DNA of 64,000 nucleotides. Origin: Pachysolen tannophilus NRRL Y-2460 (lineage: Eukaryota). Below the pieces are notes generated by a model that did no database searches, was not told the origin of the DNA, and was given only the letters and a program-made list of their open reading frames with translations. The DNA lies in NCBI GenBank assembly GCA_001661245.1, contig KV454012.1:216147-280146 (forward strand), given 5' to 3'. The position numbers were made by a program, and so were the translations under genes. Shown here in pieces: positions 4,875-61,536 of this stretch; the stretch's first letter is position 1; every line of letters starts with the position of its first letter.

Positions 4875-5289
4875 NNNNNNNNNNNNNNNNNNNNNNNNNN
4901 NNNNNNNNNNNNNNNNNNNNNNNNNNNNNNNNNNNNNNNNNNNNNNNNNNNNNNNNNNNNNNNNNNNNNNNNNNNNNNNNNNNNNNNNNNNNNNNNNNNN
5001 NNNNNNNNNNNNNNNNNNNNNNNNNNNNNNNNNNNNNNNNNNNNNNNNNNNNNNNNNNNNNNNNNNNNNNNNNNNNNNNNNNNNNNNNNNNNNNNNNNNN
5101 NNNNNNNNNNNNNNNNNNNNNNNNNNNNNNNNNNNNNNNNNNNNNNNNNNNNNNNNNNNNNNNNNNNNNNNNNNNNNNNNNNNNNNNNNNNNNNNNNNNN
5201 NNNNNNNNNNNNNNNNNNNNNNNNNNNNNNNNNNNNNNNNNNNNNNNNNNNNNNNNNNNNNNNNNNNNNNNNNNNNNNNNNNNNNNNNN
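4875..5289. other. Assembly gap (N run) flanked by poly-T
   Basis: N run in the sequence. Confidence 1.
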
Positions 5290-15440: not shown

Positions 15441-17747
15441 TTAAAAAACAATCCATTTTATTACAACCCAAATAAACATAAACAATTTTTTAAACATCCT
15501 CCCAATGAAAACATTTATCCATATCAACCATAGGAACAAACCTATCAAATTTTCCAACAGGAAATATCCGAACTTGGTTAAAACATCATTATTAACGTTC
15601 AAGTTCAAATTACTATCTAACTTCTCCAATCTCTCATTTAGTCTTCTAATTTCTAATGTGATCGAAGTATTAATTTCACTAATGGTTCTATCTGATAATG
15701 ATAATAATGAATCAACCTTGTTCGAATATTGCTGTGATAAAAAGTTTTTATAGTTGGAAGTTCCGTGTGATCTAGCATTTAATAAACTTTCGTATTTTTT
15801 CGAAATTTCATTTAAATTGACGTTATAGTTCTGATTCAATTCCGATAAAATATTGTTGATCTCAGCCTTCTTGAGACTTAGTTGGTTATTAATTATGATT
15901 GGTTTATTCATTAGATTATTCTCTGCTATCAAAACTAATCCGTTCAATCTTTTCAAGATATTAGCCTGTTTAGTCAATTGAATGCACTCATCCTCGGTCT
16001 TATTATATACTGTGTTGTTATCTACAACACCAATATCTTCTAATTCAGCTTTTACATCTCCTTTATCTGTACTTAATCTCTCAAAGTATCCCAGCCCCAG
16101 CCCCATCTTATTTCCACTATTTTCCATTGCAGAAGGTAATAATACATCTTCAGGTGCCTCCTCTGGAGTCCTATCTAATTTTTGAAAGTTACTATTACTA
16201 GAAAGCTTTCTATAATTAGACCTCTCAGAAAGTGGAAGAATATTAATTTCCCTCATTGGCAACAATTCGACTTTATCATCAGTGCCGATAGATGAATTGG
16301 ATAATGAGCTTTTCGGTGTTGTAGTTTTTGCATGCAGAACCAGTAAATAATCTTCATTAGACAATTCTCTTTTCTTTTCTTCGCTTTCATCATCTGGGTC
16401 ACTAATTGTCCCTTCTGCAGAGACTAATCTATCATTGCTTTTGGAACTATAATTTCTCAAAATCTTAGCTGGAGATTTGGACAATTTTCTAATATTAAAG
16501 CCAGCATTTTTTGTAGTTTCTCTACCTAATCTTTTAACACTGCTATTGTTACTACTAACAGGAAAATCATCCGTAGATGTAGTTGTCAGATATATATTAT
16601 CGGAAGGTGTTGGATAATATTTTTGAATTTCACTATCATTTTTAGTAGAAGTATCCAGCTCCTTATTCTTTTTATCTTCAAATAATTTTTCGTACATTTT
16701 ATTTTTATTTTGAAGAGAAGGATGATAATAACGATGATGATGATGAGGATAATGATCGTGATGATTATGACGGGCTTCTTTCTCTAAATCTTCTTCTGAT
16801 GGAAACCATAGCCTTCCATCGGGTCTTCTTAAGTGATGCCAATGTTGGGTTCTCCAAGTCAAATCATGGGCCAACTCTTTCAAATCAACTTGCCATATCA
16901 ATTTATGCTTTTTATTTTCACTAAACACTTGTGATGATGGTGTTACCAACTTCAAATCTAGAGGTGCTGGATACTGTCTATATTTTTTATATAATCTCCT
17001 ATTTCGTATCACTTGTAACGGATTGTAAACACCTTCCACGTTTGGGTATAATGGATTACCATTTGCATCTGTTTGGAAAATTTCTTGACAACGTCTAATA
17101 TTAATATGGTATAAACTTATTGTTATCTTGACTCTATTTGCTCGTTCGAATACAGCATTAGAAAACTCGTAATATTTCTTTGAATTTTCATTTTTAAAGA
17201 TTTTATTACTGACTCCACCTGATGTTTTACCTATAGCACTTTCTTGACCTGCTATATGGTTATTAAAAAATTCAGATTGTAGTTGATGCTGTTCATTCGC
17301 AAGATCAGGTTCGATATTTAAATCCGTCATCAACCCCTTTCTAATACCTAGAAACAACGTAGCTAGTTCTCCTGTTTGTTTCATGGTATCCTTCTCTCTT
17401 CCAGTTTCTTCATCGTTTCTATTAGTACTATTACTAAGATTATGATTATTATTATTATTATTATTATTATTGATTATGGTGTCATACTCGTCTAATGTAG
17501 AGGAACCCAAACTTCTATGAGGCGAAGAAGAAGAAGTCGGAGTCGAATACGACAACCTCAGTTTCCTAGCCTCCACCTGAAACCCATTGGACTTATTTTT
17601 ATGAAACCTCCTATGCTTAACCTCAGCCGGATTTTTCTGAGGTGATGAAGCCACAACAGCTGTTGCACCATTACTTTGATCATCCTCCACCATCTTCCCG
17701 ATACTGATGTCCTTCAATTTCTCCTTGATATTACTTCTACCAGACAT
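15441..17747 (-). CDS. MTC4: Mtc4-like protein
   Basis: VEGVYNPLQVIRNR and W..DL.W motifs, C-terminal coiled coil and TM segment. Confidence 0.65.
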   Translation of the reverse strand: MSGRSNIKEKLKDISIGKMVEDDQSNGATAVVASSPQKNPAEVKHRRFHKNKSNGFQVEARKLRLSYSTPTSSSSPHRSLGSSTLDEYDTIINNNNNNNNNHNLSNSTNRNDEETGREKDTMKQTGELATLFLGIRKGLMTDLNIEPDLANEQHQLQSEFFNNHIAGQESAIGKTSGGVSNKIFKNENSKKYYEFSNAVFERANRVKITISLYHINIRRCQEIFQTDANGNPLYPNVEGVYNPLQVIRNRRLYKKYRQYPAPLDLKLVTPSSQVFSENKKHKLIWQVDLKELAHDLTWRTQHWHHLRRPDGRLWFPSEEDLEKEARHNHHDHYPHHHHRYYHPSLQNKNKMYEKLFEDKKNKELDTSTKNDSEIQKYYPTPSDNIYLTTTSTDDFPVSSNNSSVKRLGRETTKNAGFNIRKLSKSPAKILRNYSSKSNDRLVSAEGTISDPDDESEEKKRELSNEDYLLVLHAKTTTPKSSLSNSSIGTDDKVELLPMREINILPLSERSNYRKLSSNSNFQKLDRTPEEAPEDVLLPSAMENSGNKMGLGLGYFERLSTDKGDVKAELEDIGVVDNNTVYNKTEDECIQLTKQANILKRLNGLVLIAENNLMNKPIIINNQLSLKKAEINNILSELNQNYNVNLNEISKKYESLLNARSHGTSNYKNFLSQQYSNKVDSLLSLSDRTISEINTSITLEIRRLNERLEKLDSNLNLNVNNDVLTKFGYFLLENLIGLFLWLIWINVFIGRMFKKLFMFIWVVIKWIVF

Positions 17748-18018
17748 CTTCTACCTATATCGAATCCATAGTTTACCTACTTCCACTCTATGTTTTGTAT
17801 TATACAATTTTAAAAAAATTCCATTTCAATTAAAAGATGTTATCAAAAAAAATTAATTAATTAATTATTTTTTGTATTTTTGCTACAAGTTTTATTAAAT
17901 GTCGAGAGATTAATATACGAAATTTAACAAATTAAATACAAAGCAGAGCAGAGCAAAGTAAAGCAGAGCAGGTTAGCTTGAGGAAAGGAGATATTGAAAA
18001 TTAATAGAGAAGGACAAA

Positions 18019-21903: not shown

Positions 21904-23546
21904 TCATTTCTTTTCCCCACAACTCCTGTATCTGGAAAGCTCAGCTAGTTTATGTATCATTCTGTTGGCATTGGTAAAACTTTCGTGTGTGTTTAAGGAA
22001 CTATTACCATTAATTTTGCCATTAGCATTAGCATTAGTATTGTTGTTAGCATTACTATTAGCATTTGTAGTGATAAAATTATTCATCTTATCTCTTAAAT
22101 TGTTAAAATCAAAATTAATACCTAAAGGATTTGTGATTGTTGCATTTGAAGTTTTTAAACCTGTTTGGATTAAAGAATAACCATCCATCAAATAATTTTC
22201 ACCTGAATCAATCATAACACCTAATAAATGCATAGATATTCTATTATCTTTAATAATTTTTGTTAAAAGATTATATTTACAATCAAAATTGGAATTACTT
22301 AATTTCCCAATATCAATCATTATTCTTGGTACAATAGTTGAATCTTTATCTAATTGTTCTAATTTAGTTGTAATTTTATAAAATAATTGTTCAACATTCA
22401 AAATATCTTTTTCAACTCCACCATTATCACCTTCTTTGAAAACATTACTTAATGATAATATAACAAATGTATCACTATTTCCAGAAGTACCAACTATTGA
22501 AACTGTACCAAGTTTTGTAATTGATAAAAAATGATGAGGAAAACTAGAAGAAAAAATTGCATCTAAAGCAGAATCAACTTTAAAAGAAAATGAATCATCT
22601 GAAACTTCAGTATGAAATCCAACAGGGTATGAAACACCAGAAGCTAATTCTCTATGTAATTGAGATTCAGTTAAAGAACTTTCAACAATTCCTAAACAAA
22701 ATAAATCGGATAAATATTGTGGAGTTAAAGTATCTGATAACTCACCAACAAGTGGACAATATTGTGCTAATTCACATAATAAAGCCCTACATATTGGAAT
22801 ACCATTTTCAATCTCAAAAGTAATTAAAGGTTGTCCCTGGTTATTGTTGTTATTATTATTATTATCATCATAATCACTCATGTTATTATAGTCTAAATTA
22901 TATTTGTTTAAATTTGTTCTCATTGAAATCAACAAATCTTTAGTATCAATTGATTCATTATTTGTATAAATCTCTTTTATACAATCTACTTCTTTTTGAG
23001 AAATTGTACCATCATAAGCTTCAGATTGTTGAATTTCATTTTTTGATACATCAAAACTTCTCTTACCAGAGATAATACTAATCCACTGAGCACAATTTTT
23101 AGCTTGAATTGGGTTTGTGATATATTTTGGACCAGTAATAACCAACATTGGATTTGGATTTGAATTTGAACTTGAATTATTCTGTGTCATTTCATTTCTT
23201 GACATTTCAATTCTTGACCTTTTTTCATCTTTATCCAATATATTATTAATTGCAGTTCTATAAAAAATAATCTTTTCTTGTAAAATTTCACTAATTGGAA
23301 ATAAAAAACTTTGAAGAACTTCAGGTTGTACAATAGGAATTTGACCTCTCTCTAAAAATACATATATATAAAACTTTTGTTAGTTATTTATATTAAAATT
23401 AAAAAAATTTAATTCACATCAACTCATATTAGTAATAATTACCAGAGATGTATAACCCTGAACCCGAAGATGAAGTTCTTGAAGCTAAAGCCCTCCTCTT
23501 ACCGCTTGTAGTACCATAATCCCAAGCTGTTGGAAACTTATCAGCA
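21904..23546 (-). CDS. Degenerate class I DAHP-synthase-like protein, 3' part (exon-1 remnant 23546-23443, intron 23442-23352, exon 23351-21904); 5' end displaced by inversion
   Basis: [47 protein letters not shown] and GVMIDS are Aro3/Aro4-like. Intron GTAATT..AACTAAC..TAG keeps the frame. No in-frame ATG precedes the remnant in the present orientation. Confidence 0.8.
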
Positions 23547-23795
23547 GTCTTGATCTCATTACCAGCAGGTGCTATTGCTAAATCACCAGTTTTCACTCAT
23601 GTTGTTAAATCTATTAAATTATTAGGTTCATATGTTGGTAATAGAGCTGATACAGCAGAAGCAATTGATTTCTTTGCAAGAGGTAAAATCCATTCTCCAA
23701 TTAAAGTTGTAGGCTTATCTGAATTACCAGAAGTTTATAAATTAATGGAAGAAGGTAAGATTGCAGGTAGATATGTTTTAGATACATCAAAATAA
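23547..23795 (+). CDS. ADH: C-terminal 82 aa of a zinc alcohol dehydrogenase (inverted fragment)
   Basis: VLISLPAGA...[20 protein letters not shown]...[13 protein letters not shown] is the canonical yeast ADH C-terminus; no start codon of its own. Confidence 0.92.
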
Positions 23796-24509
23796 AAGAA
23801 AAAGGCTGGCCTTTTTTTTAAAGAAAAATTTTTTAATTTTTTTTTTTTAAAAAAGAAGAAGAAAAATTTCAAAGATTTGATTTCAATATCAAAACCTTGA
23901 ATTTCCTTTCCTTTCCTTTTTATTTTTTTGAATTTTATTTTTTTTTAATCAGAATTTATTTATTTAGTTTGTGTTTTGTTTTAAACATATTTATTACGGA
24001 ATCATTTTCTTTTTTTTACATGGAAAAGAAAAAAAAAAATCAATATCTAGCAGATATTTAGTTTAGAAATTTTAAATGATTGTTACTTGACTCACTAAAT
24101 AATCAACCCTTAGTAAATTAAACCATTAAAAAGCTTACTATCTATCAATACAATTGGCTAACCTCAATATGAGGTTTGGTTCTTAGTAAAGACAAGTGTC
24201 ATATGTCGTACTACTTTTAAATATGAAGTGAGAAAAAAAGTGTAAAAAAGAGAAAAGGAAAGTGTCACATGACGCTATTTTCTTTTTTGTGTTTGTGATG
24301 GAGCATATGCATAATTAATGCAGGAAAGTAAGACATCAATACAGAAAGAAAGAGAAAGAGATGAGAGATGAGAGATTTGATCAATAACAACATTATCATT
24401 ATATATATATATATATATATGTATTTGAAGGTTTAAAAGCTGAGTCCAGAATAAGCCAAACTGAAAAGTACAAAAAAAAAAAATTAGTTTTGGTTTTGTT
24501 ATTTTCGGT

Positions 24510-24586
24510 ATGCTGAAGTTAATGAATAATGGGTTATCTCCAAGTCGTCAACAGATGGTAACTAGTAGTGCTGGAACAGATGTTTC
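24510..24586 (+). CDS. Displaced first 77 nt ([26 protein letters not shown]) of the DAHP-synthase-like gene
   Basis: ATG at 24510 joins in frame to 23546(-) once 23547-24586 is re-inverted. Confidence 0.65.
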
Positions 24587-25423
24587 AACTTTACCACATG
24601 GTCTAACGTATTCACAAGATTGAGTGATAGCTGCTTCAGAAACAGCAACGTTAAGAACACCATGAGGACCACCATTTGTTGCTTCTTGAATATCTTTAAC
24701 TAAATCTTTTGATTTTTTAAAATCAATGAAAACTTCAGCACCAAATGATTTAACCAATTTTTCCTTTTCATCTCCACCATCAATTGCAAGAACTCTATAA
24801 CCCATTGCAACTGCATATTGAACAGCTAATGAACCTAAACCACCACCTGCACCAGAAATTGCAACCCATTCTCCAGCTTTTAAATCTGCAGTTTTTAAAC
24901 CTTTATAAACAGTAATACCAGCACATAAAATTGGAGAAATTGAAGCTAAATCTGTTCCTTTTGGAATATGTGCAGCTTGAATAGCATCAGCAGTTGCAAA
25001 TTGTTGGAAAGAACCATCATGGGTATAACCAGATAAATCTGCTTCAGCACAATTAGATTCATTTCCATTAATACAATATTCACAATTTAAACATGAACTA
25101 TTTAACCATTTAACACCTGCATAATCACCAATTTCAAAATTAGTAACAGAATCACCTTTTGCAACAACAATACCTGCACCTTCATGACCACCAACTAATG
25201 GCAATTTTGTATCTAATGGCCAATCACCTTTCCATGCATGTAAATCAGTATGACAAACACCAGAATATTTAATATTAACCAAGATTTCATTTGGTTTTGG
25301 AGTTGGAACTGGAATATCCTTATAAATTAAAGGTCCACCACTTTTTTCAAAAATAACAGCCTTTTGACTAGAAGGAATACCAGCTGGAAATTTAAAACGC
25401 AAAGCTCTAGTTTGCTTAAACAT
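24587..25423 (-). CDS. ADH: Zinc alcohol dehydrogenase, N-terminal 279 aa, with short mitochondrial-type presequence; truncated by inversion
   Basis: [16 protein letters not shown], structural-zinc Cys cluster and GAGGGLG are present. Homology ends abruptly at RPCGKV, followed by a non-homologous 12-aa tail to the stop at 24548. Confidence 0.94.
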
Positions 25424-25719
25424 AATTAAAGTGGTTATAAATTAATTTTTTCAAATAGTAGTAGAAATAAATAGAAAATATGAAGTTAATGTAATTAGAT
25501 TCTTGTAATTACAATTAGTTCAATTTAATCGTAAAGGTTATTCAAAGAGTATTTATACAAACAAGAAAGAAAGAAAAAAAAAAAGTACCACCCAAGAAAT
25601 AGGAGTAATACAATCGAAATTAATGATCATTTTAAAGACAAAAATTAAAAATAAAAATACCAATCAAATGAAAACTATTAACTGAAACATAAAAGGGTAA
25701 AAAAAAAAAGTACTTACGA

Positions 25720-26221: not shown

Positions 26222-27949
26222 TTACAAATCTCCAAAAGAGTCATAGACATTTCTCCAATTACAGAAAAAACCTTTAAAAAACTTAATACCTAATCCGAGA
26301 TCCTTTGAACCTGACATTCCTCTAATACTATGCATTGATAATTGTGGGATACCAACATCTATTACACGAGCACCTGTTTGACTTGAAATAAAAGGACCAA
26401 TTGTAGAACCTGAACGAATATCATTTCTTACATGGAATTTTTGGAAAAAATCATTATTTAATTCTGCTAATTGTTTAATAATTGAAATTCCAATAAGATC
26501 TGTGGCCGTATGTCCGTTTGGATCCAATTTGACGGTGATCCCCGTATTGGGTAATGGTCGATGGCGGGGTAAGTACGCATCTGGGAAATTTGGATTAAAT
26601 AAATGCGTGACATCAGTGGAGAGTATAATAGAATTTGCAAATATAATTTTATTTATGGAATTTGTATCATCAAGTTTATAAAAAGAATTTGTTACTCTAT
26701 TAATTATTGATTCGAAAAAACCTCCTCTAACACCTTGTCTTGAAAGTGATCCAATTTCTTCATTATCAAAAAGTCCAACAATTGTAAAATTTGAATTTAA
26801 ATTTGAATTTGAATTATTACTATTATTATCAAATTCAATTAATGCATTAATTGCTGCATATGAACATAATTTATCATCAAGTCTAGGTGCAAAAAAAAAT
26901 TCATTTGAAAGACCACCAATTGAACCTTTTTGAATATCAAATAAATCAAAATCAATTCCATAAATTTCAGAAACTTTTACATTGGCTAATTTTGCTACAT
27001 ACCTTAAAAATTTTAAAGAATGTTCACCATATAATGGAGCAGATTTTTCATCTTCTAAAGGTTCTGGTTCATCTTTAATATCAAACCCAATTATTGGAAC
27101 CATTTGAGTTTCTAAATTAAATGGTCCTTTTGAAACTGATCCGAAATGTTCAGCTAAACTAGCAATATGTCCAATAGGATGTGGTGTTGAATTAATTAAT
27201 TTTATTGAAAATTTACAATTTTTCCTAATTAAAACTCTACCACCAAAACCCAAATCTCTATCCCACCATTTATCACTTAATGCACCAGAATATGGTGCAA
27301 CTCCAAGTAATTCATAACCTTCATTTTTAGGTTTAACAGAATTTGGTTTAAGTTTCACTGTTAATGAATCAACATGTGCAACAATACTACCAACACCATT
27401 ACAAGGTTTCCAATCTTTACCTATGATAAATGCTATCAATGAAGTACCAGATCTAGTAGAAAAATATTTCCCAGGTTTCAAGTTAGACCAATCAAGTTTC
27501 TCTGGTAAATATTTAAACCCATTCATAGTTAATAATTCACCAATTCCTTCTACAAAATGATATGTAGTAGGATTAGAATAAGTAAAATCAATGTAGTCAT
27601 TAGTATACTTGATGTAATAATCATCATTATCATCATTTTTCACTGAATTTTTTTTCCTATCATTATTGCTAGACTTGCGGGAATGATGACACTCATCCGA
27701 TTCATCTGCATCTTCAAATTCAAAACTATTGTAAGAATATAATTTTTGAAAATTTGTTGTAACATTTATATTACCAGACTTTTGGGATTCAGGTTTTTCG
27801 GACAAAGACTTGGAAATTACCGGATCGCAACCACAATATGCAGACTCCATTTCTCCCGCCATTTGCAAACCTCCAACAACATTTATCTTCTTCAGTACTA
27901 CAGATCCAATCTTCCTATCTTTTAAATCTTTGTTATCTGACTCTGACAT
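26222..27949 (-). CDS. APE1: M18 vacuolar aminopeptidase I, copy A
   Basis: NPTTYH, HVDS, WWDRDLG, SLAEHFG, PRLDDK, DNEEIGS, DVTH, PNGHTATD, SGSTIGP and QLSMHSIR; likely ATG at 27949. Confidence 0.88.
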   Translation of the reverse strand: MSESDNKDLKDRKIGSVVLKKINVVGGLQMAGEMESAYCGCDPVISKSLSEKPESQKSGNINVTTNFQKLYSYNSFEFEDADESDECHHSRKSSNNDRKKNSVKNDDNDDYYIKYTNDYIDFTYSNPTTYHFVEGIGELLTMNGFKYLPEKLDWSNLKPGKYFSTRSGTSLIAFIIGKDWKPCNGVGSIVAHVDSLTVKLKPNSVKPKNEGYELLGVAPYSGALSDKWWDRDLGFGGRVLIRKNCKFSIKLINSTPHPIGHIASLAEHFGSVSKGPFNLETQMVPIIGFDIKDEPEPLEDEKSAPLYGEHSLKFLRYVAKLANVKVSEIYGIDFDLFDIQKGSIGGLSNEFFFAPRLDDKLCSYAAINALIEFDNNSNNSNSNLNSNFTIVGLFDNEEIGSLSRQGVRGGFFESIINRVTNSFYKLDDTNSINKIIFANSIILSTDVTHLFNPNFPDAYLPRHRPLPNTGITVKLDPNGHTATDLIGISIIKQLAELNNDFFQKFHVRNDIRSGSTIGPFISSQTGARVIDVGIPQLSMHSIRGMSGSKDLGLGIKFFKGFFCNWRNVYDSFGDL

Positions 27950-28094
27950 CGATAGACTCGGGCTTCCTTTTTCCAGAACTAGTTTCCCACAACCTTTCAC
28001 CCACCAAAAGCTAACAAAATGAAACAAATAAAAAAAAAAAAAAAAACAAAAAAAATAACTTCTTCGTTTCTACGTATATATATATATATATATA

Positions 28095-28469
28095 NNNNNN
28101 NNNNNNNNNNNNNNNNNNNNNNNNNNNNNNNNNNNNNNNNNNNNNNNNNNNNNNNNNNNNNNNNNNNNNNNNNNNNNNNNNNNNNNNNNNNNNNNNNNNN
28201 NNNNNNNNNNNNNNNNNNNNNNNNNNNNNNNNNNNNNNNNNNNNNNNNNNNNNNNNNNNNNNNNNNNNNNNNNNNNNNNNNNNNNNNNNNNNNNNNNNNN
28301 NNNNNNNNNNNNNNNNNNNNNNNNNNNNNNNNNNNNNNNNNNNNNNNNNNNNNNNNNNNNNNNNNNNNNNNNNNNNNNNNNNNNNNNNNNNNNNNNNNNN
28401 NNNNNNNNNNNNNNNNNNNNNNNNNNNNNNNNNNNNNNNNNNNNNNNNNNNNNNNNNNNNNNNNNNNNN
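28095..28469. other. Assembly gap (N run)
   Basis: N run; the two flanks are noisy copies of one another. Confidence 1.
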
Positions 28470-28834: not shown

Positions 28835-30433
28835 TCATAAATCACCAAAGGAGTTATAAATGTCTTTCCAATTTTTGAAAAAATCTACAAAGAATTTAAT
28901 GCCCAAGCCAATATCTTGTGAACCAGACATTCCTCTTATACTATGCATTGCCAATTGAGGAATGCCTACATCTATTGTTCTCGCACCAGTTTGGCTTGAT
29001 ATAAATGAGCCAATTGTGGATCCTGACCTAATATCATTTCGACATTTAAAAATTTGAATTTTATTATTTGTCAAATTAGCTAATAGTTTGACAAATGCAA
29101 GTCCTACTTTATCGGTTGAAGTTTTAGTTTCGTTGTAAAATTTAACTACTATCCCAGTGTTTAGTAATGGACTATGTCCTTTTAAGTAAGCACTATCAAA
29201 ATTCGGATTGTATGCATGTGTTACATCAGCAGATAAGATGATTGAATTTGCCATTGCAACTCTTGTTTGACTGACAACATTTTTAGTTTGAGCAGAAGCA
29301 GCAATAACTTTGTCAACTACTAATTCGAATATGCCTCCACGAGCACCTTGTCTTGATAAAGATCCTAATTCTTCATTATCATAACATGTGACCACCACAA
29401 ATGACTCATCATAGTCTGCTTCACTCAGATATTCTATTAAAGAATTTATGGCAGCAAATGAACATAATTTATCATCTATTCTAGGTGCAAAGAAAAATTC
29501 ATTTGAAATTCCACCTATGCATCCTTTATGAACATCAAATAAATCGAAATCAAAATCTTGTAATTGAGAAACTTCTACATTTGCCAAGTTTGCAATATGC
29601 CTTAAAAATTTTAAAGAATGCTTCCCATATAATACAGATTTTTTCTCCATGGCAGTTGGCTCTGGTTCCTCTTTAAGATCAAATCCAATTATTGGAACCA
29701 TTTGGGTTTCTAAATTAAATGGACCTTCTCCCAATTGTTGAAAAGGGTCCACCATGCTTGCAATATGCGCAATTGGATGAGGTGTTGAGTTGACTAATTT
29801 TTTGGAAAATGTATTATCATTATTTTTAACCAAGACTCTACCACCAAAACCCAAGTCTCTATCCCACCACTTATCACTTAACCCTCCAGCATATGGAGCA
29901 ACCCCAACTAATTCATAACCTTCATTTTTAGGTTTTACAGAATTTGGTTTAAGTTTCACTGTTAATGAATCCGCATGCGAACCAATCGCAGCTACACCTT
30001 TCAAAGGTTCCCAATTTCTACCAACAGCAAATGCACTTATACACGTATCCGATCTTGTAGTATAGTAAAGTCCCAGCTTTAAATTAGACCAATCTTCTTT
30101 CTCCGATAAATATGTGAAACCATTAGAAGAAAGTAATTTCTTCAACCCATCAATAAAGTGATAAGTGGTGGGATTATTGTAAGTAAAATCAATATAATCT
30201 TGCGTATATTTCAAATAATATTCTTTTGAATCCCTATCCAATTGCATTCTTTTACAATATTGTGTCTCTGGTGGTGAAATTAATGATAACAATAAAGCAG
30301 CTGTTTTATTTTGTAATGGAATCTTATCATCAATCGAATTTTGCTTCAATATCTCATTAATATCTAATCCCGCTTTTTGGATTTCATTGAGAAGCTTCTC
30401 CACATATCCCATATTTAGATCAGCTTCTGTCAT
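28835..30433 (-). CDS. APE1: M18 vacuolar aminopeptidase I paralog, copy B
   Basis: Same M18 motifs (HADS, RIDDK, DNEELGS, DVTH, LAMHSIR) with a helical propeptide-like N-terminus. Confidence 0.85.
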   Translation of the reverse strand: MTEADLNMGYVEKLLNEIQKAGLDINEILKQNSIDDKIPLQNKTAALLLSLISPPETQYCKRMQLDRDSKEYYLKYTQDYIDFTYNNPTTYHFIDGLKKLLSSNGFTYLSEKEDWSNLKLGLYYTTRSDTCISAFAVGRNWEPLKGVAAIGSHADSLTVKLKPNSVKPKNEGYELVGVAPYAGGLSDKWWDRDLGFGGRVLVKNNDNTFSKKLVNSTPHPIAHIASMVDPFQQLGEGPFNLETQMVPIIGFDLKEEPEPTAMEKKSVLYGKHSLKFLRHIANLANVEVSQLQDFDFDLFDVHKGCIGGISNEFFFAPRIDDKLCSFAAINSLIEYLSEADYDESFVVVTCYDNEELGSLSRQGARGGIFELVVDKVIAASAQTKNVVSQTRVAMANSIILSADVTHAYNPNFDSAYLKGHSPLLNTGIVVKFYNETKTSTDKVGLAFVKLLANLTNNKIQIFKCRNDIRSGSTIGSFISSQTGARTIDVGIPQLAMHSIRGMSGSQDIGLGIKFFVDFFKNWKDIYNSFGDL

Positions 30434-37178: not shown

Positions 37179-37406
37179 NNNNNNNNNNNNNNNNNNNNNN
37201 NNNNNNNNNNNNNNNNNNNNNNNNNNNNNNNNNNNNNNNNNNNNNNNNNNNNNNNNNNNNNNNNNNNNNNNNNNNNNNNNNNNNNNNNNNNNNNNNNNNN
37301 NNNNNNNNNNNNNNNNNNNNNNNNNNNNNNNNNNNNNNNNNNNNNNNNNNNNNNNNNNNNNNNNNNNNNNNNNNNNNNNNNNNNNNNNNNNNNNNNNNNN
37401 NNNNNN
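37179..37406. other. Assembly gap (N run)
   Basis: N run in the sequence. Confidence 1.
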
Positions 37407-44665: not shown

Positions 44666-45697
44666 TCACCATAACTCTTCAATGACAACATTTCCATCTT
44701 TTTCTTCATAAAACAACTTTGCCAGTGTGATCTTTATGGTTTGATTATGATAAAATTCAATAACTGCATTAAAATCAACGGCACCTTCTTTTATAGATTT
44801 ATTATAATTACTTGCTATTGGAATTCTACCTTCTGTTATTATCGAATAATCTCTTAAACCCGCCTTGTTTTCATTCATTAATTGTATATGGAAATCACCT
44901 GGGTTTTCATTTATTCCTATTGGATCCAAAATATCATTAAATTTCTCCTTTATTGGAACTTCTCTTCTTATCCAATTTATTGAAGGTTTATTATCTTTAA
45001 AAGATATATTAATTCCACTAAATATAAAATTTTCAAATTGTAAAAATACTTTAAATTTATCACAATGATGAACAATTAAAGGTAATCCAAATTTTTCTTT
45101 AACTTTTTGGTTTGATGATATTTTTTCAATAATTTTTAATTCTGTATGTTCTTGTAATTTATTTAAATCAATTCCATAATTATTTTCAGAATCAATTTCA
45201 AGTCTTTTACTAATATATAAAGGTATAAAAGAATCTTCACATTTTACTAAAGACTGATAAGCAACATAACATGCTATAGTAATGAAAAAGGGTAAAATGA
45301 AAATCCCTATCTTTGTAAAATTTGAAAATTTTGATTCTTCTCTTTTAATGTTATTAGTAGCAATAGCATTCTCTATTGTCTCCTTAAGAAGCTTCCTCCT
45401 ATTCTTCTCAATTTCAGAAGCCAATGACAAGTGATCATCTTTTTTAGAATTTTCCGAACTATTATAACGAAAACTAGAACCTTGTTTATACAATGATTTC
45501 AATTTTTGGATTAACCTAAATTTCTGTGGCCTCTTATTATAATATATATTCCCATAATTGCAATTACCAAAAAATCTTTTATTAATCAAAACTTCAGAAA
45601 ATCTATAGACACAATTACTGCTTCGTGAACCAACACCAACACCAATTAAATGATAAAATTGTCTAGCACTTCCATTTATTACTATCATCTTCTTCAT
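44666..45697 (-). CDS. Uncharacterised single-TM, probably mitochondrial protein
   Basis: 343-aa ORF with an Arg/Lys-rich N-terminus and one hydrophobic segment (IGIFILPFFITIACYVAY). Confidence 0.55.
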   Translation of the reverse strand: MKKMIVINGSARQFYHLIGVGVGSRSSNCVYRFSEVLINKRFFGNCNYGNIYYNKRPQKFRLIQKLKSLYKQGSSFRYNSSENSKKDDHLSLASEIEKNRRKLLKETIENAIATNNIKREESKFSNFTKIGIFILPFFITIACYVAYQSLVKCEDSFIPLYISKRLEIDSENNYGIDLNKLQEHTELKIIEKISSNQKVKEKFGLPLIVHHCDKFKVFLQFENFIFSGINISFKDNKPSINWIRREVPIKEKFNDILDPIGINENPGDFHIQLMNENKAGLRDYSIITEGRIPIASNYNKSIKEGAVDFNAVIEFYHNQTIKITLAKLFYEEKDGNVVIEELW

Positions 45698-45955
45698 AAT
45701 TGGACTATATTACACCTTTTACCTTTATCTACTACATAATAAGATCCGTCTCCATATATATCTATTATATCTTCTATAACAAAATTTCGAAAAAAGAATT
45801 GATACACTACACACGAAGAAAATAGTACACCAAAAGTTCAATTTAACCAATTAACTGTTGGAATATATATATCTATAAAAAAATAGCAGAGTAGAGCAAT
45901 CCAGACAATGAGTAATGTACATAAATGTTGGAAAATTGAAAGTTCTGTTTGTTTT

Positions 45956-47052
45956 TCAAACTTTTGGAAGTTTGGATGGATCCCAGTCATCGTCTTCATC
46001 GGCCCATGAGACTCCAGCAGTCTGGAAAGTTTGAAGCATCTCTTCAAATTCTTTCAGTTCCTTCAGTTCTTGTGCTTCTGCCTGTTCCCTTGTGAGATTC
46101 TTATTTTTGAATTGCCCTGATTTACCTTTGGCCAAGGCCTTGGACTTGGCACGAGCTTGTGCATATTCGAGTGTTGGTTTCCCCTTATTCCATTTAAGAT
46201 TTGGATCATTGAGTTTATTCTTTCTGTATGATTCTTTTTGTAAATCTTTTTTCTCACTTATGAGTTCTCTGGGTTTTGGCTTGGATATCAATCCTAATCT
46301 AGCTGCAAAATCTTGAGCTTCTACAGATAGCTCCGATATATCTTTTCTATCTTCTTCTTCTTCTTCTTCCTCTTCTTCAGAATTTTCAGAATTTTCAGAA
46401 TTTTCACTCTCTTCCACTACTTCTTCATAAATGTCATCCTCAGAACCAGATTCTTCATGTTTATCAGTAGGAGCAACATGAATGCCTAACCTTGATGCAA
46501 AACTTTTAGCAGCTTCTGTCATTTCAGGTTTTTCATTTTCATTTTCACTTTCATCTTCAATTTGATCATCGTAATCGCTAGTATCGTGTTTTAAACTTTT
46601 ACGAGAATTATCTTCTTGAAATTTACCTCTTATATGAGGTTTCCTCTCATTATTGTGAAATTTTTTATCCTGTTGAATTTTCATACTTCTTGGACCTTTA
46701 GGAATTGACTTTTTCGGTGAAGAATTAATAGATGAAGTTGGTGTTGGGATTGTTTCCTTTTCCTTTGTTTTTGTTGTAACTGTTGCCCATTTGGATTCTA
46801 GCAGTTTATTCGGTGGTATTGGAGAAACTGATGAAGAAACCGTAGTAGAAGTCATCGATACAGGTGAAACCAGATTAAGAGGTTCTTCATTTTTACTCTT
46901 TGAATGACGATCACGATCTTGTTCAACTGCTTTTTTAACTAAACTATCATCAGTTGCCCATTTAGAAATTAAACCAGACTAATGTCAAAAATTTTTGGTA
47001 AATATTAGTACCGTAATCTTAAATTTTTAATAATTTTAAAATAACTTACCAT
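45956..47052 (-). CDS. Charged low-complexity protein, possibly Gfd1-like; exon 1 is ATG only (47052-47050), intron 47049-46979, exon 2 46978-45956
   Basis: ATG|GTAAGT..TACTAAT..TAG|TCT is in frame with the long ORF, giving MSGLISKWATDD...; C-terminal SWADEDD. Confidence 0.6.
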
Positions 47053-51625: not shown

Positions 51626-52363
51626 CTATAAATATTTTTCACTAAGAACGTTATAACATTCTTTTATAATAACATTATCTACAAATTTGTTAGCTTCAGA
51701 ACCACCATATTGGAAAAAAATCATTCCAATTAACATTTGTAATGATTTAAAACAAGTTTCTTTTTGTAAATCAGTTTTTGGTTCATTTTGATAAAATTCT
51801 TTAGGTGGTTTTACTAAATCATATAACCCTATTCTACTGCACGATTTAATCAAAGTTTTCTTATTTTGTAAGCGTTTTAATATACTCAGTTTACCATCAT
51901 CATTAAATGCATCAAAATTATTATTTGATTCCAATAATATCGATAAATTTATTCTCATTCTCAATATTTGTGATCCCATTTTTTGTATATTACTTGATCT
52001 CATTATAACATCAAATTTCTTATTATCTTTATAACAAGTTGAAATAGAAAAATCATTTTTACTATATAATATACTCAATAATTGTAATTTGGTAAATTTA
52101 TAATCGGGTATTATTTTTTGTAAATTACTTAAATCATTAGATAACAACCTATTAAAATTATCCAAATTCGTTTCAAACCTATTCTTCACCACAGATCCAT
52201 CAACATAATAAATATTTTCTCTTATTAATGGCTCCACTATACTACAATTTTCATAATTATTTAAACCAATCATACTTGGGTCATTGAATTTTAAATTCTT
52301 AAGCTCAAATGATAACCTCCTAGAAACATCGCAAAGAGTTGTATAAAATCTCTTGTATAACAT
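51626..52363 (-). CDS. Probable mitochondrial protein with RNase III-like fold (mL57/MrpL15-like)
   Basis: MLYKRFY presequence; NIQKMGSQIL and LIGMIFFQYGGSEANKFV resemble degenerate RNase III helices. Confidence 0.4.
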   Translation of the reverse strand: MLYKRFYTTLCDVSRRLSFELKNLKFNDPSMIGLNNYENCSIVEPLIRENIYYVDGSVVKNRFETNLDNFNRLLSNDLSNLQKIIPDYKFTKLQLLSILYSKNDFSISTCYKDNKKFDVIMRSSNIQKMGSQILRMRINLSILLESNNNFDAFNDDGKLSILKRLQNKKTLIKSCSRIGLYDLVKPPKEFYQNEPKTDLQKETCFKSLQMLIGMIFFQYGGSEANKFVDNVIIKECYNVLSEKYL

Positions 52364-52621
52364 CCCCTCCTAATTTTTTCTTCTTCAACTTCCAAATCCT
52401 CCCTCGCTCTATTGCATTTGCTTCTCTTCTATTCTTCCAATAATAATTATTTAATATTTTTACTAATAAATTAATATTAAAATTTTTTTTTAATTTTTTA
52501 TTTATTTTTTTATATATGTTAAAAAAGCAAAAAAAATTTCTTTTTTCACCTATATTTAATAATACGGTAAATAGTTGAATACGAGAGTTATATTGAGTCT
52601 TAACAAGTAAGACGCTTGATT

Positions 52622-59422: not shown

Positions 59423-60070
59423 TTTGATTATGTGTGTTCTTTTCTTTTTTTTTCCAATTTTTTAATTAATTTTTACTTTATTTTTTTTCTATCCTGTATA
59501 CCAATTACTACTAATTTAAATGAACGTTCATAATTAATTCGAATCAGACTAATACAGAAAAATTCAATATACCTCGTAGATATTAAAAACTTACTTACCT
59601 ACCCTACCCAACAACTCATCAACTCATCCATCCAACTCTTAATTTGAGGTAAAATGTATAGACGTGTATGAAATATCCAAACTTCCGTTTTAGGACAATG
59701 AAAAAAGAATTTTTTTTTTTCTATTTTTTAGTGGCGGCATCAAATCATTAAGTAAAAGTTGAAAATGTGTATTAATTATATATTCAGTCAAAAAAACAAA
59801 AAAAAATAAAAAAAAATAAAATAAAATTTAATTAATCAAGTTGTGTCTTTTCAGCGCTAATAAGTGTTGAATCCATGCATAGAAGGGGTTGATTTAATTT
59901 ATTATAAAAATATTTTTGTTAATATTGCTTTAAACCTAACTATCAAAGTATACATATTTACTGCTTGTTAGCTTTAGTTAGCGTTGGTTATTTTTTTTTT
60001 TTTTTTTTTGTTTTGTTTCCCTTATAAAATTTGAATTGGCAATAAATACACTACCGCACGATTATTTTTA

Positions 60071-61536
<1,466 letters not shown>

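What the first reader, a model, noticed from the sequence alone, without database searches (positions are those of the whole stretch)
23547..24586. Precise 1,040-bp inversion that breaks two genes at once; flipping it restores both ORFs
Seen: ADH on the minus strand stops being ADH at ...RPCGKV (codon 24589-24587). The missing C-terminus (GTC TTG ATC TCA TTA CCA = VLISLP...DTSK*) lies 1 kb away on the plus strand from 23547. Reverse-complementing 23547-24586 gives an intact 361-aa ADH. The same flip joins ATG 24510 (MLKLMNNG...GTDVS) in frame to [11 protein letters not shown]...LYIS, then the intron 23442-23352 and exon 2, giving a 542-aa DAHP-synthase-like ORF. No base is gained or lost at either junction. 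The only junction homology is 1 bp (G23547/C24586), and I see no inverted repeats, recombinase or transposon nearby. The segment carries the ADH terminator and the second gene's promoter, so orientation would switch both genes on or off together. Inference: it could be a recent NHEJ-type inversion causing a double knock-out, a reversible DNA switch, or a misassembly/chimeric join. The undecayed fragments imply it is very recent or not real.
Basis: partly seen in the sequence, partly recalled or inferred. Interest (0 to 1): 0.9.

Follow-up and report, generated by a model that had tools for sequence, protein, structure and literature searches.

The report
Inverted segment is an assembly error
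The 1,040-base inversion that seems to break an alcohol dehydrogenase gene and its neighbour is present in the public reference sequence of this yeast, but independent read sets all show the unbroken orientation, so it is almost certainly an assembly mistake.

Summary
In the window, 23547-24586 is a base-perfect inversion. Flipping it restores a 361-aa zinc alcohol dehydrogenase and a 542-aa DAHP-synthase-like gene. The organism is Pachysolen tannophilus NRRL Y-2460. The inversion is in the public assembly, because the NCBI protein PACTADRAFT_79087 reads straight across the inverted junction.

The reads disagree with the reference. Five public runs hold the stretch, and four were laid, from two samples and two studies. 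In 4 of 4, contigs assembled from the reads join 23547 to 24587 and 23546 to 24586 on opposite strands. That is the restored orientation, and it sits at flank depth. Those contigs account for all the depth in both junction bins, so no contig carries the window's junctions. No inverted repeat lies at the junctions, and 39 ORFs screened in the window gave no recombinase or transposase.

Verdict: a local orientation error in a fragmented scaffold-level reference, about 0.88. Both genes are intact in the organism, and their annotated models (a 291-aa ADH and the 508-aa PACTADRAFT_79087) are artefacts. A real inversion in one clone (about 0.08) or a rare switch (about 0.02) cannot be excluded from contigs alone. 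Biological interest is low, but the result is useful for curation.

The parts
23547..24586 (.). Segment that is inverted in the reference relative to the read-derived contigs (1,040 bp; boundaries ambiguous by 1 bp)
   Evidence: flipping it restores both ORFs. table 5: joints on opposite strands 23547<->24587 and 23546<->24586 (reported as 23547<->24585 in X1 and X2) in 4 of 4 runs.
24587..25423 (-). ADH, codons 1-279 (ADH_N domain plus the first 85 of 129 profile positions of ADH_zinc_N)
23547..23795 (+). ADH, codons 280-361 plus the stop, lying on the wrong strand in the reference
   Evidence: it abuts the head piece at alignment column 296/297.
23796..24509 (.). Intergenic low-complexity DNA, inferred to hold the ADH terminator and the gene 2 promoter. 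Here the reference differs from the read contigs in homopolymer lengths.
   Evidence: tables 3-4: differences at 23930-23938. +T after 24009 and +A after 24028 in 4 of 4 runs. +AAAA after 24471 in 3 of 4 runs. One search shows the sequence.
24510..24586 (+). First 77 nt of gene 2 (ATG 24510, MLKLMNNG...GTDV), on the wrong strand in the reference
   Evidence: in frame with the rest of exon 1 after the flip; contigs join 24586 to 23546.
23443..23546 (-). Rest of gene 2 exon 1 ([13 protein letters not shown]...SGSGLYIS)
   Evidence: conserved motif in homologues.
23352..23442 (-). 91-nt intron of gene 2 (GTAATT ... AACTAAC ... TAG)
   Evidence: Splicing it gives ...GLYIS|ERGQ..., which matches 6 of the 7 other-species homologues aligned. 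Not confirmed by RNA.
21904..23351 (-). Gene 2 exon 2, DAHP_synth_1-like (stop at 21904-21906)
   Evidence: PF00793, 43.2 bits against a cut-off of 25.5; identical to PACTADRAFT_79087 over this part.

Best explanation
The inversion is an orientation error in the public reference assembly of Pachysolen tannophilus NRRL Y-2460, not a feature of the organism. In the real genome the ADH gene and the DAHP-synthase-like gene lie head to tail on the minus strand. Both are intact and are separated by about 0.7 kb of low-complexity intergenic DNA. The reference carries the 1,040-bp piece (ADH 3' end, intergenic DNA, gene 2 5' end) reverse-complemented.

The annotation pipeline then produced two false models. 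One is a 291-aa truncated ADH. The other is a 508-aa gene 2 model that borrows antisense ADH codons and skips 20 conserved residues.

What is shown: the inversion is in the window and in the public record, and read-derived contigs carry only the other orientation. What is inferred: that the assembler or a gap-closing or patching step caused it. The exact step is unknown.
For: (a): 5 runs hold 0.91 of the sampled words. X1-X4 are one sample and study (2010-2016). X5 is another sample and study (2023).

(b): four of the five were laid; X4 was left out. In 4 of 4, one contig joins 23547 to 24587 on opposite strands (side 255; depths 15, 68.7, 176.8, 125). In 4 of 4, another contig joins 23546 to 24586, or 23547 to 24585, which is the same joint given the 1-bp ambiguity (depths 15.4, 66.4, 159.6, 115.2). 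These depths equal those of the flanks.

(c) None of the 32 listed contig pieces crosses 23546|23547 or 24586|24587 colinearly. Thirteen pieces were not shown. One search shows that the two joint-carrying contigs alone reproduce the observed depth in 8 of 8 junction bins to within 0.1, so no further contig lies over either junction.

(d) The inverted form is in the public record. NCBI protein PACTADRAFT_79087 (P0121) has ...[24 protein letters not shown], which maps colinearly to the minus strand 23575-23504, across the inverted junction. The truncated 291-aa ADH (P0001) is the only 100% match, on one contig of 2,193,613 bp.

(e) The assembly is scaffold-level. Its contig N50 is in the 10^4 bin, its scaffold N50 is 1.69 Mb, and it has under 2% N (passages of PMC13232491). 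The window itself has 3 N runs.

(f) Inside the segment the reference has homopolymer-length differences from all read sets (table 4). This points to locally weaker consensus.

(g) There are no inverted repeats at the junctions. No recombinase or transposase domain was found in 39 ORFs of the window screened against Pfam.

(h) Both gene halves are undecayed, as expected if nothing is broken in vivo.
Against: The read evidence comes from contigs, which drop rare variants. They show that the restored form is present and dominant, not that the inverted form is absent.

I could not establish which runs the reference was built from, so a reference made from a different DNA preparation is not excluded.

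The breakpoints lie in unique coding sequence with only 1 bp of ambiguity and no lost base. That is unusual for repeat-driven misassembly and would also fit a real NHEJ-type inversion. The step that produced the error is not identified: the assembly paper (Riley et al. 2016) was not held.
Confidence: 0.88

Rival explanations
1. A real, fixed inversion in the particular clone or DNA preparation behind the reference. This would be a spontaneous, repeat-independent (NHEJ-type) inversion that knocks out both genes. It would be absent from the cultures sequenced in the runs examined.
For: The join is base-perfect, has 1-bp microhomology and lies in unique sequence. This resembles end-joining repair more than a repeat-driven assembly error. 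The public record carries it.
Against: Three runs of one sample spanning 2010-2016 and one run of a second study (2023) all show only the restored form at full depth. At the A-run after 24471, X1 agrees with the reference where the other three runs do not (table 4). That is a weak hint that X1 is close to the reference's source data, yet X1 also carries the restored junctions. Neither gene fragment shows any decay.
Confidence: 0.08
2. A reversible DNA switch. Both orientations would coexist in a culture, and the 1,040-bp piece carrying the ADH terminator and the gene 2 promoter would turn both genes on or off together.
For: The geometry alone: one flip affects two genes. P. tannophilus does have one proven invertible region, at MAT (passages of PMC6692504).
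Against: The known MAT switch depends on 2-kb inverted repeats. Here there are none, only 1 bp. No recombinase was found in 39 screened ORFs. In 4 of 4 runs the contigs run straight through the restored junctions, without the branching that two abundant forms would cause, and at flank depth. A switch that cuts through two coding sequences would be without precedent.
Confidence: 0.02
3. The inversion was introduced after the public record, for example as a planted test or a data-handling error in this scan.
For: None beyond the neatness of the event.
Against: An NCBI/UniRef protein of the public annotation reads across the inverted junction. The 291-aa truncated ADH exists in the protein collection on a 2.19-Mb contig.
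Confidence: 0.01

Closest known systems
Local inversion (misorientation) errors in draft scaffold-level genome assemblies
   Same: A short internal piece is reverse-complemented in the reference while read data support the other orientation. The reference is a fragmented scaffold-level assembly with contig N50 in the 10^4 bin. Gene models at the site are distorted.
   Different: The breakpoints are not in repeats or at N gaps, and no base is lost or gained. The error-producing step is not identified. That such errors are a recognised class of misassembly is from my own knowledge, not from a call.
Flip/flop mating-type switching of Pachysolen tannophilus (8-kb invertible MAT region flanked by 2-kb inverted repeats; Krassowski et al. 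2019, PMC6692504, passages read)
   Same: Same species. A DNA inversion would change which genes are expressed.
   Different: MAT inversion works by recombination between 2-kb inverted repeats, and both orientations are found. Here there are no repeats and only one orientation is seen in read contigs. This is not a member of that kind.
Yeast zinc-dependent alcohol dehydrogenases with an N-terminal extension (S. cerevisiae Adh3p, K. lactis Adh3/Adh4)
   Same: The restored protein has ADH_N and ADH_zinc_N domains. Its first 279 residues are 74% identical to S. cerevisiae Adh3p (P0115) and 79% identical to the closest relative, P0002. It has a short basic N-terminal extension shared with P0002.
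   Different: The extension is only about 13 residues. Mitochondrial targeting is inferred, not tested.

Membership tests
Assembly artefact (misoriented segment) | Read data contradict the reference junctions and support the alternative join | tested here: met
   the restored junctions appear in contigs of 4 of 4 runs (2 studies) at flank depth; no other contig depth lies over the junction bins (8 of 8 bins).
Assembly artefact (misoriented segment) | No raw read of the source libraries supports the reference junctions | not testable with these tools
   Only Logan contigs were served, no raw reads. Which runs were the source of the reference is not known to me.
Assembly artefact (misoriented segment) | The odd junction is in the deposited record itself | tested here: met
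   The N-terminus of P0121 (PACTADRAFT_79087) maps across 23547|23546 colinearly.
Invertible DNA switch (yeast flip/flop MAT type) | Inverted repeats flanking the invertible segment | tested here: not met
   none of the 25 longest inverted pairs listed (of 355) lies at the junctions; no k-mer of 14 or more near either junction recurs in the window. Only 1 bp is complementary.
Invertible DNA switch (yeast flip/flop MAT type) | Both orientations present in DNA of a culture | tested here: not met
   only the restored orientation appears in contigs of 4 runs. Rare forms would be invisible in contigs.
Site-specific-recombinase invertible element | A recombinase or invertase gene in or beside the segment | tested here: not met
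   The segment holds no ORF other than the two gene ends. 39 window ORFs scanned against Pfam gave no recombinase, integrase or transposase family.
Zinc-dependent medium-chain alcohol dehydrogenase | GroES-like ADH_N domain plus a complete Rossmann-type ADH_zinc_N domain | tested here: met
   ADH_N 1-104 of 104, and ADH_zinc_N 1-85 of 129 in the head piece; the tail piece supplies the rest and abuts without a gap against 5 full-length ADHs. It is complete only in the restored orientation.
DAHP synthetase I family (gene 2) | Pfam PF00793 above the gathering score | tested here: met
   43.2 bits against a cut-off of 25.5, but only profile positions 13-171 of 270 are matched. This is a divergent paralogue group also found in Komagataella, Scheffersomyces, Millerozyma and Ogataea. 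Enzyme activity was not tested.

The most novel reading that the evidence does not exclude
The inverted form is real but rare. It would be a repeat-less, base-perfect 1,040-bp inversion present in a minority of cells, or in the one clone behind the reference. It would toggle an ADH gene and a DAHP-synthase-like gene together, at a frequency too low to appear in contigs.
Probability: 0.02. Interest if true: 0.8.

Novelty: not a real feature. Interest (0 to 1): 0.08.

Why it matters
This matters for curation, not for biology. The public reference of the type strain of P. tannophilus, a xylose- and glycerol-fermenting yeast and the founding CUG-Ala species, carries two wrong gene models at this site. 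The first is a truncated alcohol dehydrogenase, which could be mistaken for a pseudogene in studies of ethanol metabolism. The second is a mis-modelled DAHP-synthase-like protein (PACTADRAFT_79087), which has already been copied into NCBI and UniRef. The case also shows that a base-perfect double gene break with undecayed halves should be checked against reads before any biological reading.

Tried and rejected
- Whole-genome tools. No genome is held for this window, so no genome-wide search for paralogues or similar inversions was possible.
- RNA evidence. No RNA holder was listed. Splicing of the 91-nt intron and expression of either gene are untested.
- Assembly method. Riley et al. 2016 and Liu et al. 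2012 are not held, so the assembler and any gap-closing step are unknown. The independent CAHV01 assembly of the same strain, mentioned in PMC4937558, could not be queried.
- Proteomics. The supplements of PMC4937558 could not be read. A tryptic peptide spanning the ADH junction might be listed there.
- Earlier notes of this scan. There are none for this genome.
- A joint 'skips 417' (24045->24463) appears in 3 runs with only 21 letters on one side. I dismissed it as a low-complexity match from contigs that otherwise lie elsewhere.
- Further broken genes of the same kind. 35 other ORFs of the window were scanned against Pfam. None showed complementary domain halves on opposite strands.
- Literature. 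The search for PACTADRAFT_79087 found 0 papers. A search combining Pachysolen tannophilus, alcohol dehydrogenase, inversion and misassembl listed 10 of 31 papers, and none concerned this locus. I found no report of this error in those two searches.
- The first Pfam call failed on a frame slip and was corrected.

Full report
**What is in the window.** The region 21.9-25.4 kb holds two minus-strand genes.

- The first is a zinc-dependent alcohol dehydrogenase. It starts at ATG 25423 and matches ADH_N fully. It matches ADH_zinc_N only up to profile position 85 of 129, where the similarity stops at codon 24589-24587 (...RPCGKV). Twelve unrelated codons and a stop follow, giving 291 aa.
- The missing 82 residues (VLISLP...DTSK, stop 23793-23795) lie about 1 kb away on the plus strand, starting at 23547.
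- In an alignment with five full-length yeast ADHs, the head piece ends at column 296 and the tail piece begins at column 297, without gap or overlap.
- Reverse-complementing 23547-24586 in a script gives one 361-aa ORF. That is the length of the closest relative found, P0002, whose sequence is 79% identical to the head piece.

**The second gene.** The same flip joins ATG 24510 in frame to [13 protein letters not shown]...SGSGLYIS. With the 91-nt intron 23352-23442 (GTAATT...AACTAAC...TAG) and the large exon 21904-23351, this gives a 542-aa protein with a DAHP_synth_1 match.

- The spliced stretch WDYGTT...[12 protein letters not shown] is conserved in 6 of the 7 other-species homologues aligned; P0159 lacks it.
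- The 26 residues upstream of ADKFP fall in a region that varies between species. Homology therefore cannot confirm that junction.

**The junctions.** They share only 1 bp of complementarity.

- Nothing among the 25 longest inverted pairs listed (of 355) lies at the junctions.
- No k-mer of 14 or more within 40 bases of either junction recurs in the window.

**Where the sequence comes from, and whether the inversion is in the public record.** The search with gene 2 returned a 100% match named PACTADRAFT_79087, from Pachysolen tannophilus NRRL Y-2460 (508 aa, sources NCBI and UniRef), on a contig of 2,193,613 bp.

- Its N-terminus...[24 protein letters not shown], maps colinearly onto the minus strand 23575-23504. 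It thus crosses 23547|23546 in the inverted state.
- The residues IAPAGNEIK are the antisense reading of the ADH tail.
- To obtain a start codon, the model appears to use a 19-nt 'intron' (my reading of the DNA printed). It also skips 20 residues that the homologues conserve.
- So the inversion is in the deposited assembly and was not introduced later. The annotation was built on it.
- The truncated 291-aa ADH is the only 100% match to the ADH head piece in the protein collection.
- The assembly (GCA_001661245.1, attributed to Riley et al. 2016) is described in passages of PMC13232491 as scaffold-level and 12.6 Mb. Its contig N50 is in the 10^4 bin, its scaffold N50 is 1.69 Mb and it has under 2% N.
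- The window has three N runs: 4875-5289, 28095-28469 and 37179-37406.

**What the reads say.** Five public runs hold 0.91 of the sampled words of 22800-25500. X1-X4 are one sample and one study, dated 2010, 2011, 2016 and 2016. X5 is a second sample and study, dated 2023. I laid X1, X2, X3 and X5; X4 was left out because a call takes four runs. All four are served as contigs assembled from each run on its own.

- In 4 of 4 runs, one contig runs from 23807 down to 23547 and continues directly at 24587 up to 25242. This is a joint on opposite strands between 23547 and 24587, with 255 letters on the shorter side and depths of 15, 68.7, 176.8 and 125.
- In 4 of 4 runs, a second contig joins the left flank (22880-23546) to 24586 going down. 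It is reported as 23546<->24586 in X3 and X5, and as 23547<->24585 in X1 and X2. These are the same joint given the 1-bp ambiguity. Depths are 15.4, 66.4, 159.6 and 115.2.
- These are exactly the two junctions of the restored orientation, at the depth of the flanks.
- None of the 32 listed contig pieces crosses 23546|23547 or 24586|24587 colinearly.
- Thirteen pieces were not shown. I therefore checked the depth table: the two joint-carrying contigs alone reproduce the observed depth of both junction bins in all four runs, 8 of 8 bins within 0.1. No other contig lies over either junction.
- The contigs include the intron and the intergenic DNA, so they behave as genomic DNA.

**Limits of that evidence.** Contigs drop rare variants. 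They show that the restored form is present and dominant, not that the inverted form is absent. I do not know which runs the reference was built from. One weak hint exists: at the A-run after 24471, X1 agrees with the reference while X2, X3 and X5 have four more A (table 4). This suggests X1 is close to the reference's source data, yet X1 also carries the restored junctions.

**Quality of the reference around the site.** Inside the low-complexity intergenic part of the segment (23868-24483), the reference differs from the read contigs at several places (tables 3-4).

- Differences occur at 23930-23938.
- There is +T after 24009 and +A after 24028 in 4 of 4 runs.
- There is +AAAA after 24471 in 3 of 4 runs.
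- The coding flanks show 0 differences.

Elsewhere in the window, an ESA1-like acetyltransferase is split into two frames within an A-rich run at about 60448-60466. This looks like the same kind of homopolymer-length error, but I could not check it against reads. A Pfam screen of 35 further ORFs showed no other gene with halves on opposite strands.

**Explanation.** The most likely account (about 0.88) is a local orientation error in the reference. In the organism both genes are intact and lie in tandem on the minus strand.

- ADH and the DAHP-synthase-like gene may also be near neighbours in relatives. In Ogataea angusta the locus tags are KL919_002449 and KL919_002447. P0002 and P0124 both list a longest contig of 64,712. 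This fits an ancestral tandem arrangement, but it is an inference from names and contig lengths only.
- I cannot say which step produced the error. The breakpoints are in unique coding sequence and not at N gaps, which is unusual for repeat-driven misassembly. A patch or gap-fill piece pasted in reverse is one possibility, and it is pure inference. The assembly paper was not available.

**Rivals.**

- A real inversion fixed in the clone behind the reference (about 0.08) fits the clean end-joining-like junctions. It is opposed by three runs of one sample across six years, plus an independent run, all showing the restored form.
- A reversible switch (about 0.02) is opposed by several results. 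There are no inverted repeats. No recombinase was found in 39 screened ORFs. The contigs run unbranched and at full depth through the restored junctions.
- For comparison, the one proven invertible region of this species is the 8-kb MAT region. It relies on 2-kb inverted repeats (passages of PMC6692504).
- A planted or post-hoc alteration (about 0.01) is contradicted by the public protein that spans the junction.

**Novelty and value.** This is not a real biological feature.

- I found no mention of the locus in two literature searches. PACTADRAFT_79087 gave 0 papers. The combined search on Pachysolen tannophilus, alcohol dehydrogenase, inversion and misassembl gave nothing on this locus among the 10 of 31 papers listed.
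- The practical value is a correction of two gene models in the reference of a type strain.
- Codon 2 of gene 2 is CTG, which this yeast reads as alanine according to PMC4937558 (title, abstract and passages seen). The translations given here use the standard code.

Noticed in passing
window 60035-61533 (+): An ESA1-like MYST histone acetyltransferase (Tudor-knot, zf-MYST, MOZ_SAS) is split into two overlapping ORFs in different frames. The shift falls in an A-rich run at about 60448-60466. This is probably a homopolymer-length error of the reference, or possibly an unusual intron. It was not checked against reads.
   Followed up: partly
window 23868-24483: In low-complexity intergenic DNA the reference differs from the read contigs. 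There is +T after 24009 and +A after 24028 in all four runs, and +AAAA after 24471 in 3 of 4. There are also substitutions and a 3-nt insertion at 23930-23938.
   Followed up: partly
window 23504-23600 (-): The public gene model PACTADRAFT_79087 (508 aa) starts with antisense ADH codons. It seems to use a 19-nt GT...AG 'intron' to gain an ATG, and it uses a donor that skips 20 residues ([20 protein letters not shown]) conserved in homologues.
   Followed up: yes
window 26225-28069 (-) and 28838-30433 (-): Two tandem M18 aminopeptidase I paralogues, each with a full Peptidase_M18 domain. They are separated by the N run 28095-28469.
   Followed up: no
window 24513-24515 (+), codon 2 of gene 2: This is the only CTG codon in either restored gene; the ADH has none. 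In this CUG-Ala yeast it would be read as alanine, not leucine.
   Followed up: partly
window 25385-25423 (-): The ADH has a short basic N-terminal extension ([12 protein letters not shown]...) compared with cytosolic-type ADHs such as P0003. The closest relative, P0002, shares it. It may be a mitochondrial presequence, as in Adh3-type enzymes. Not tested.
   Followed up: no
window 15444-17750 (-), 44669-46978 (-), 51629-52619 (-): Long ORFs (769, 347, 340, 247 and 99 aa) with no Pfam family at E <= 1e-5. Not examined further.
   Followed up: no
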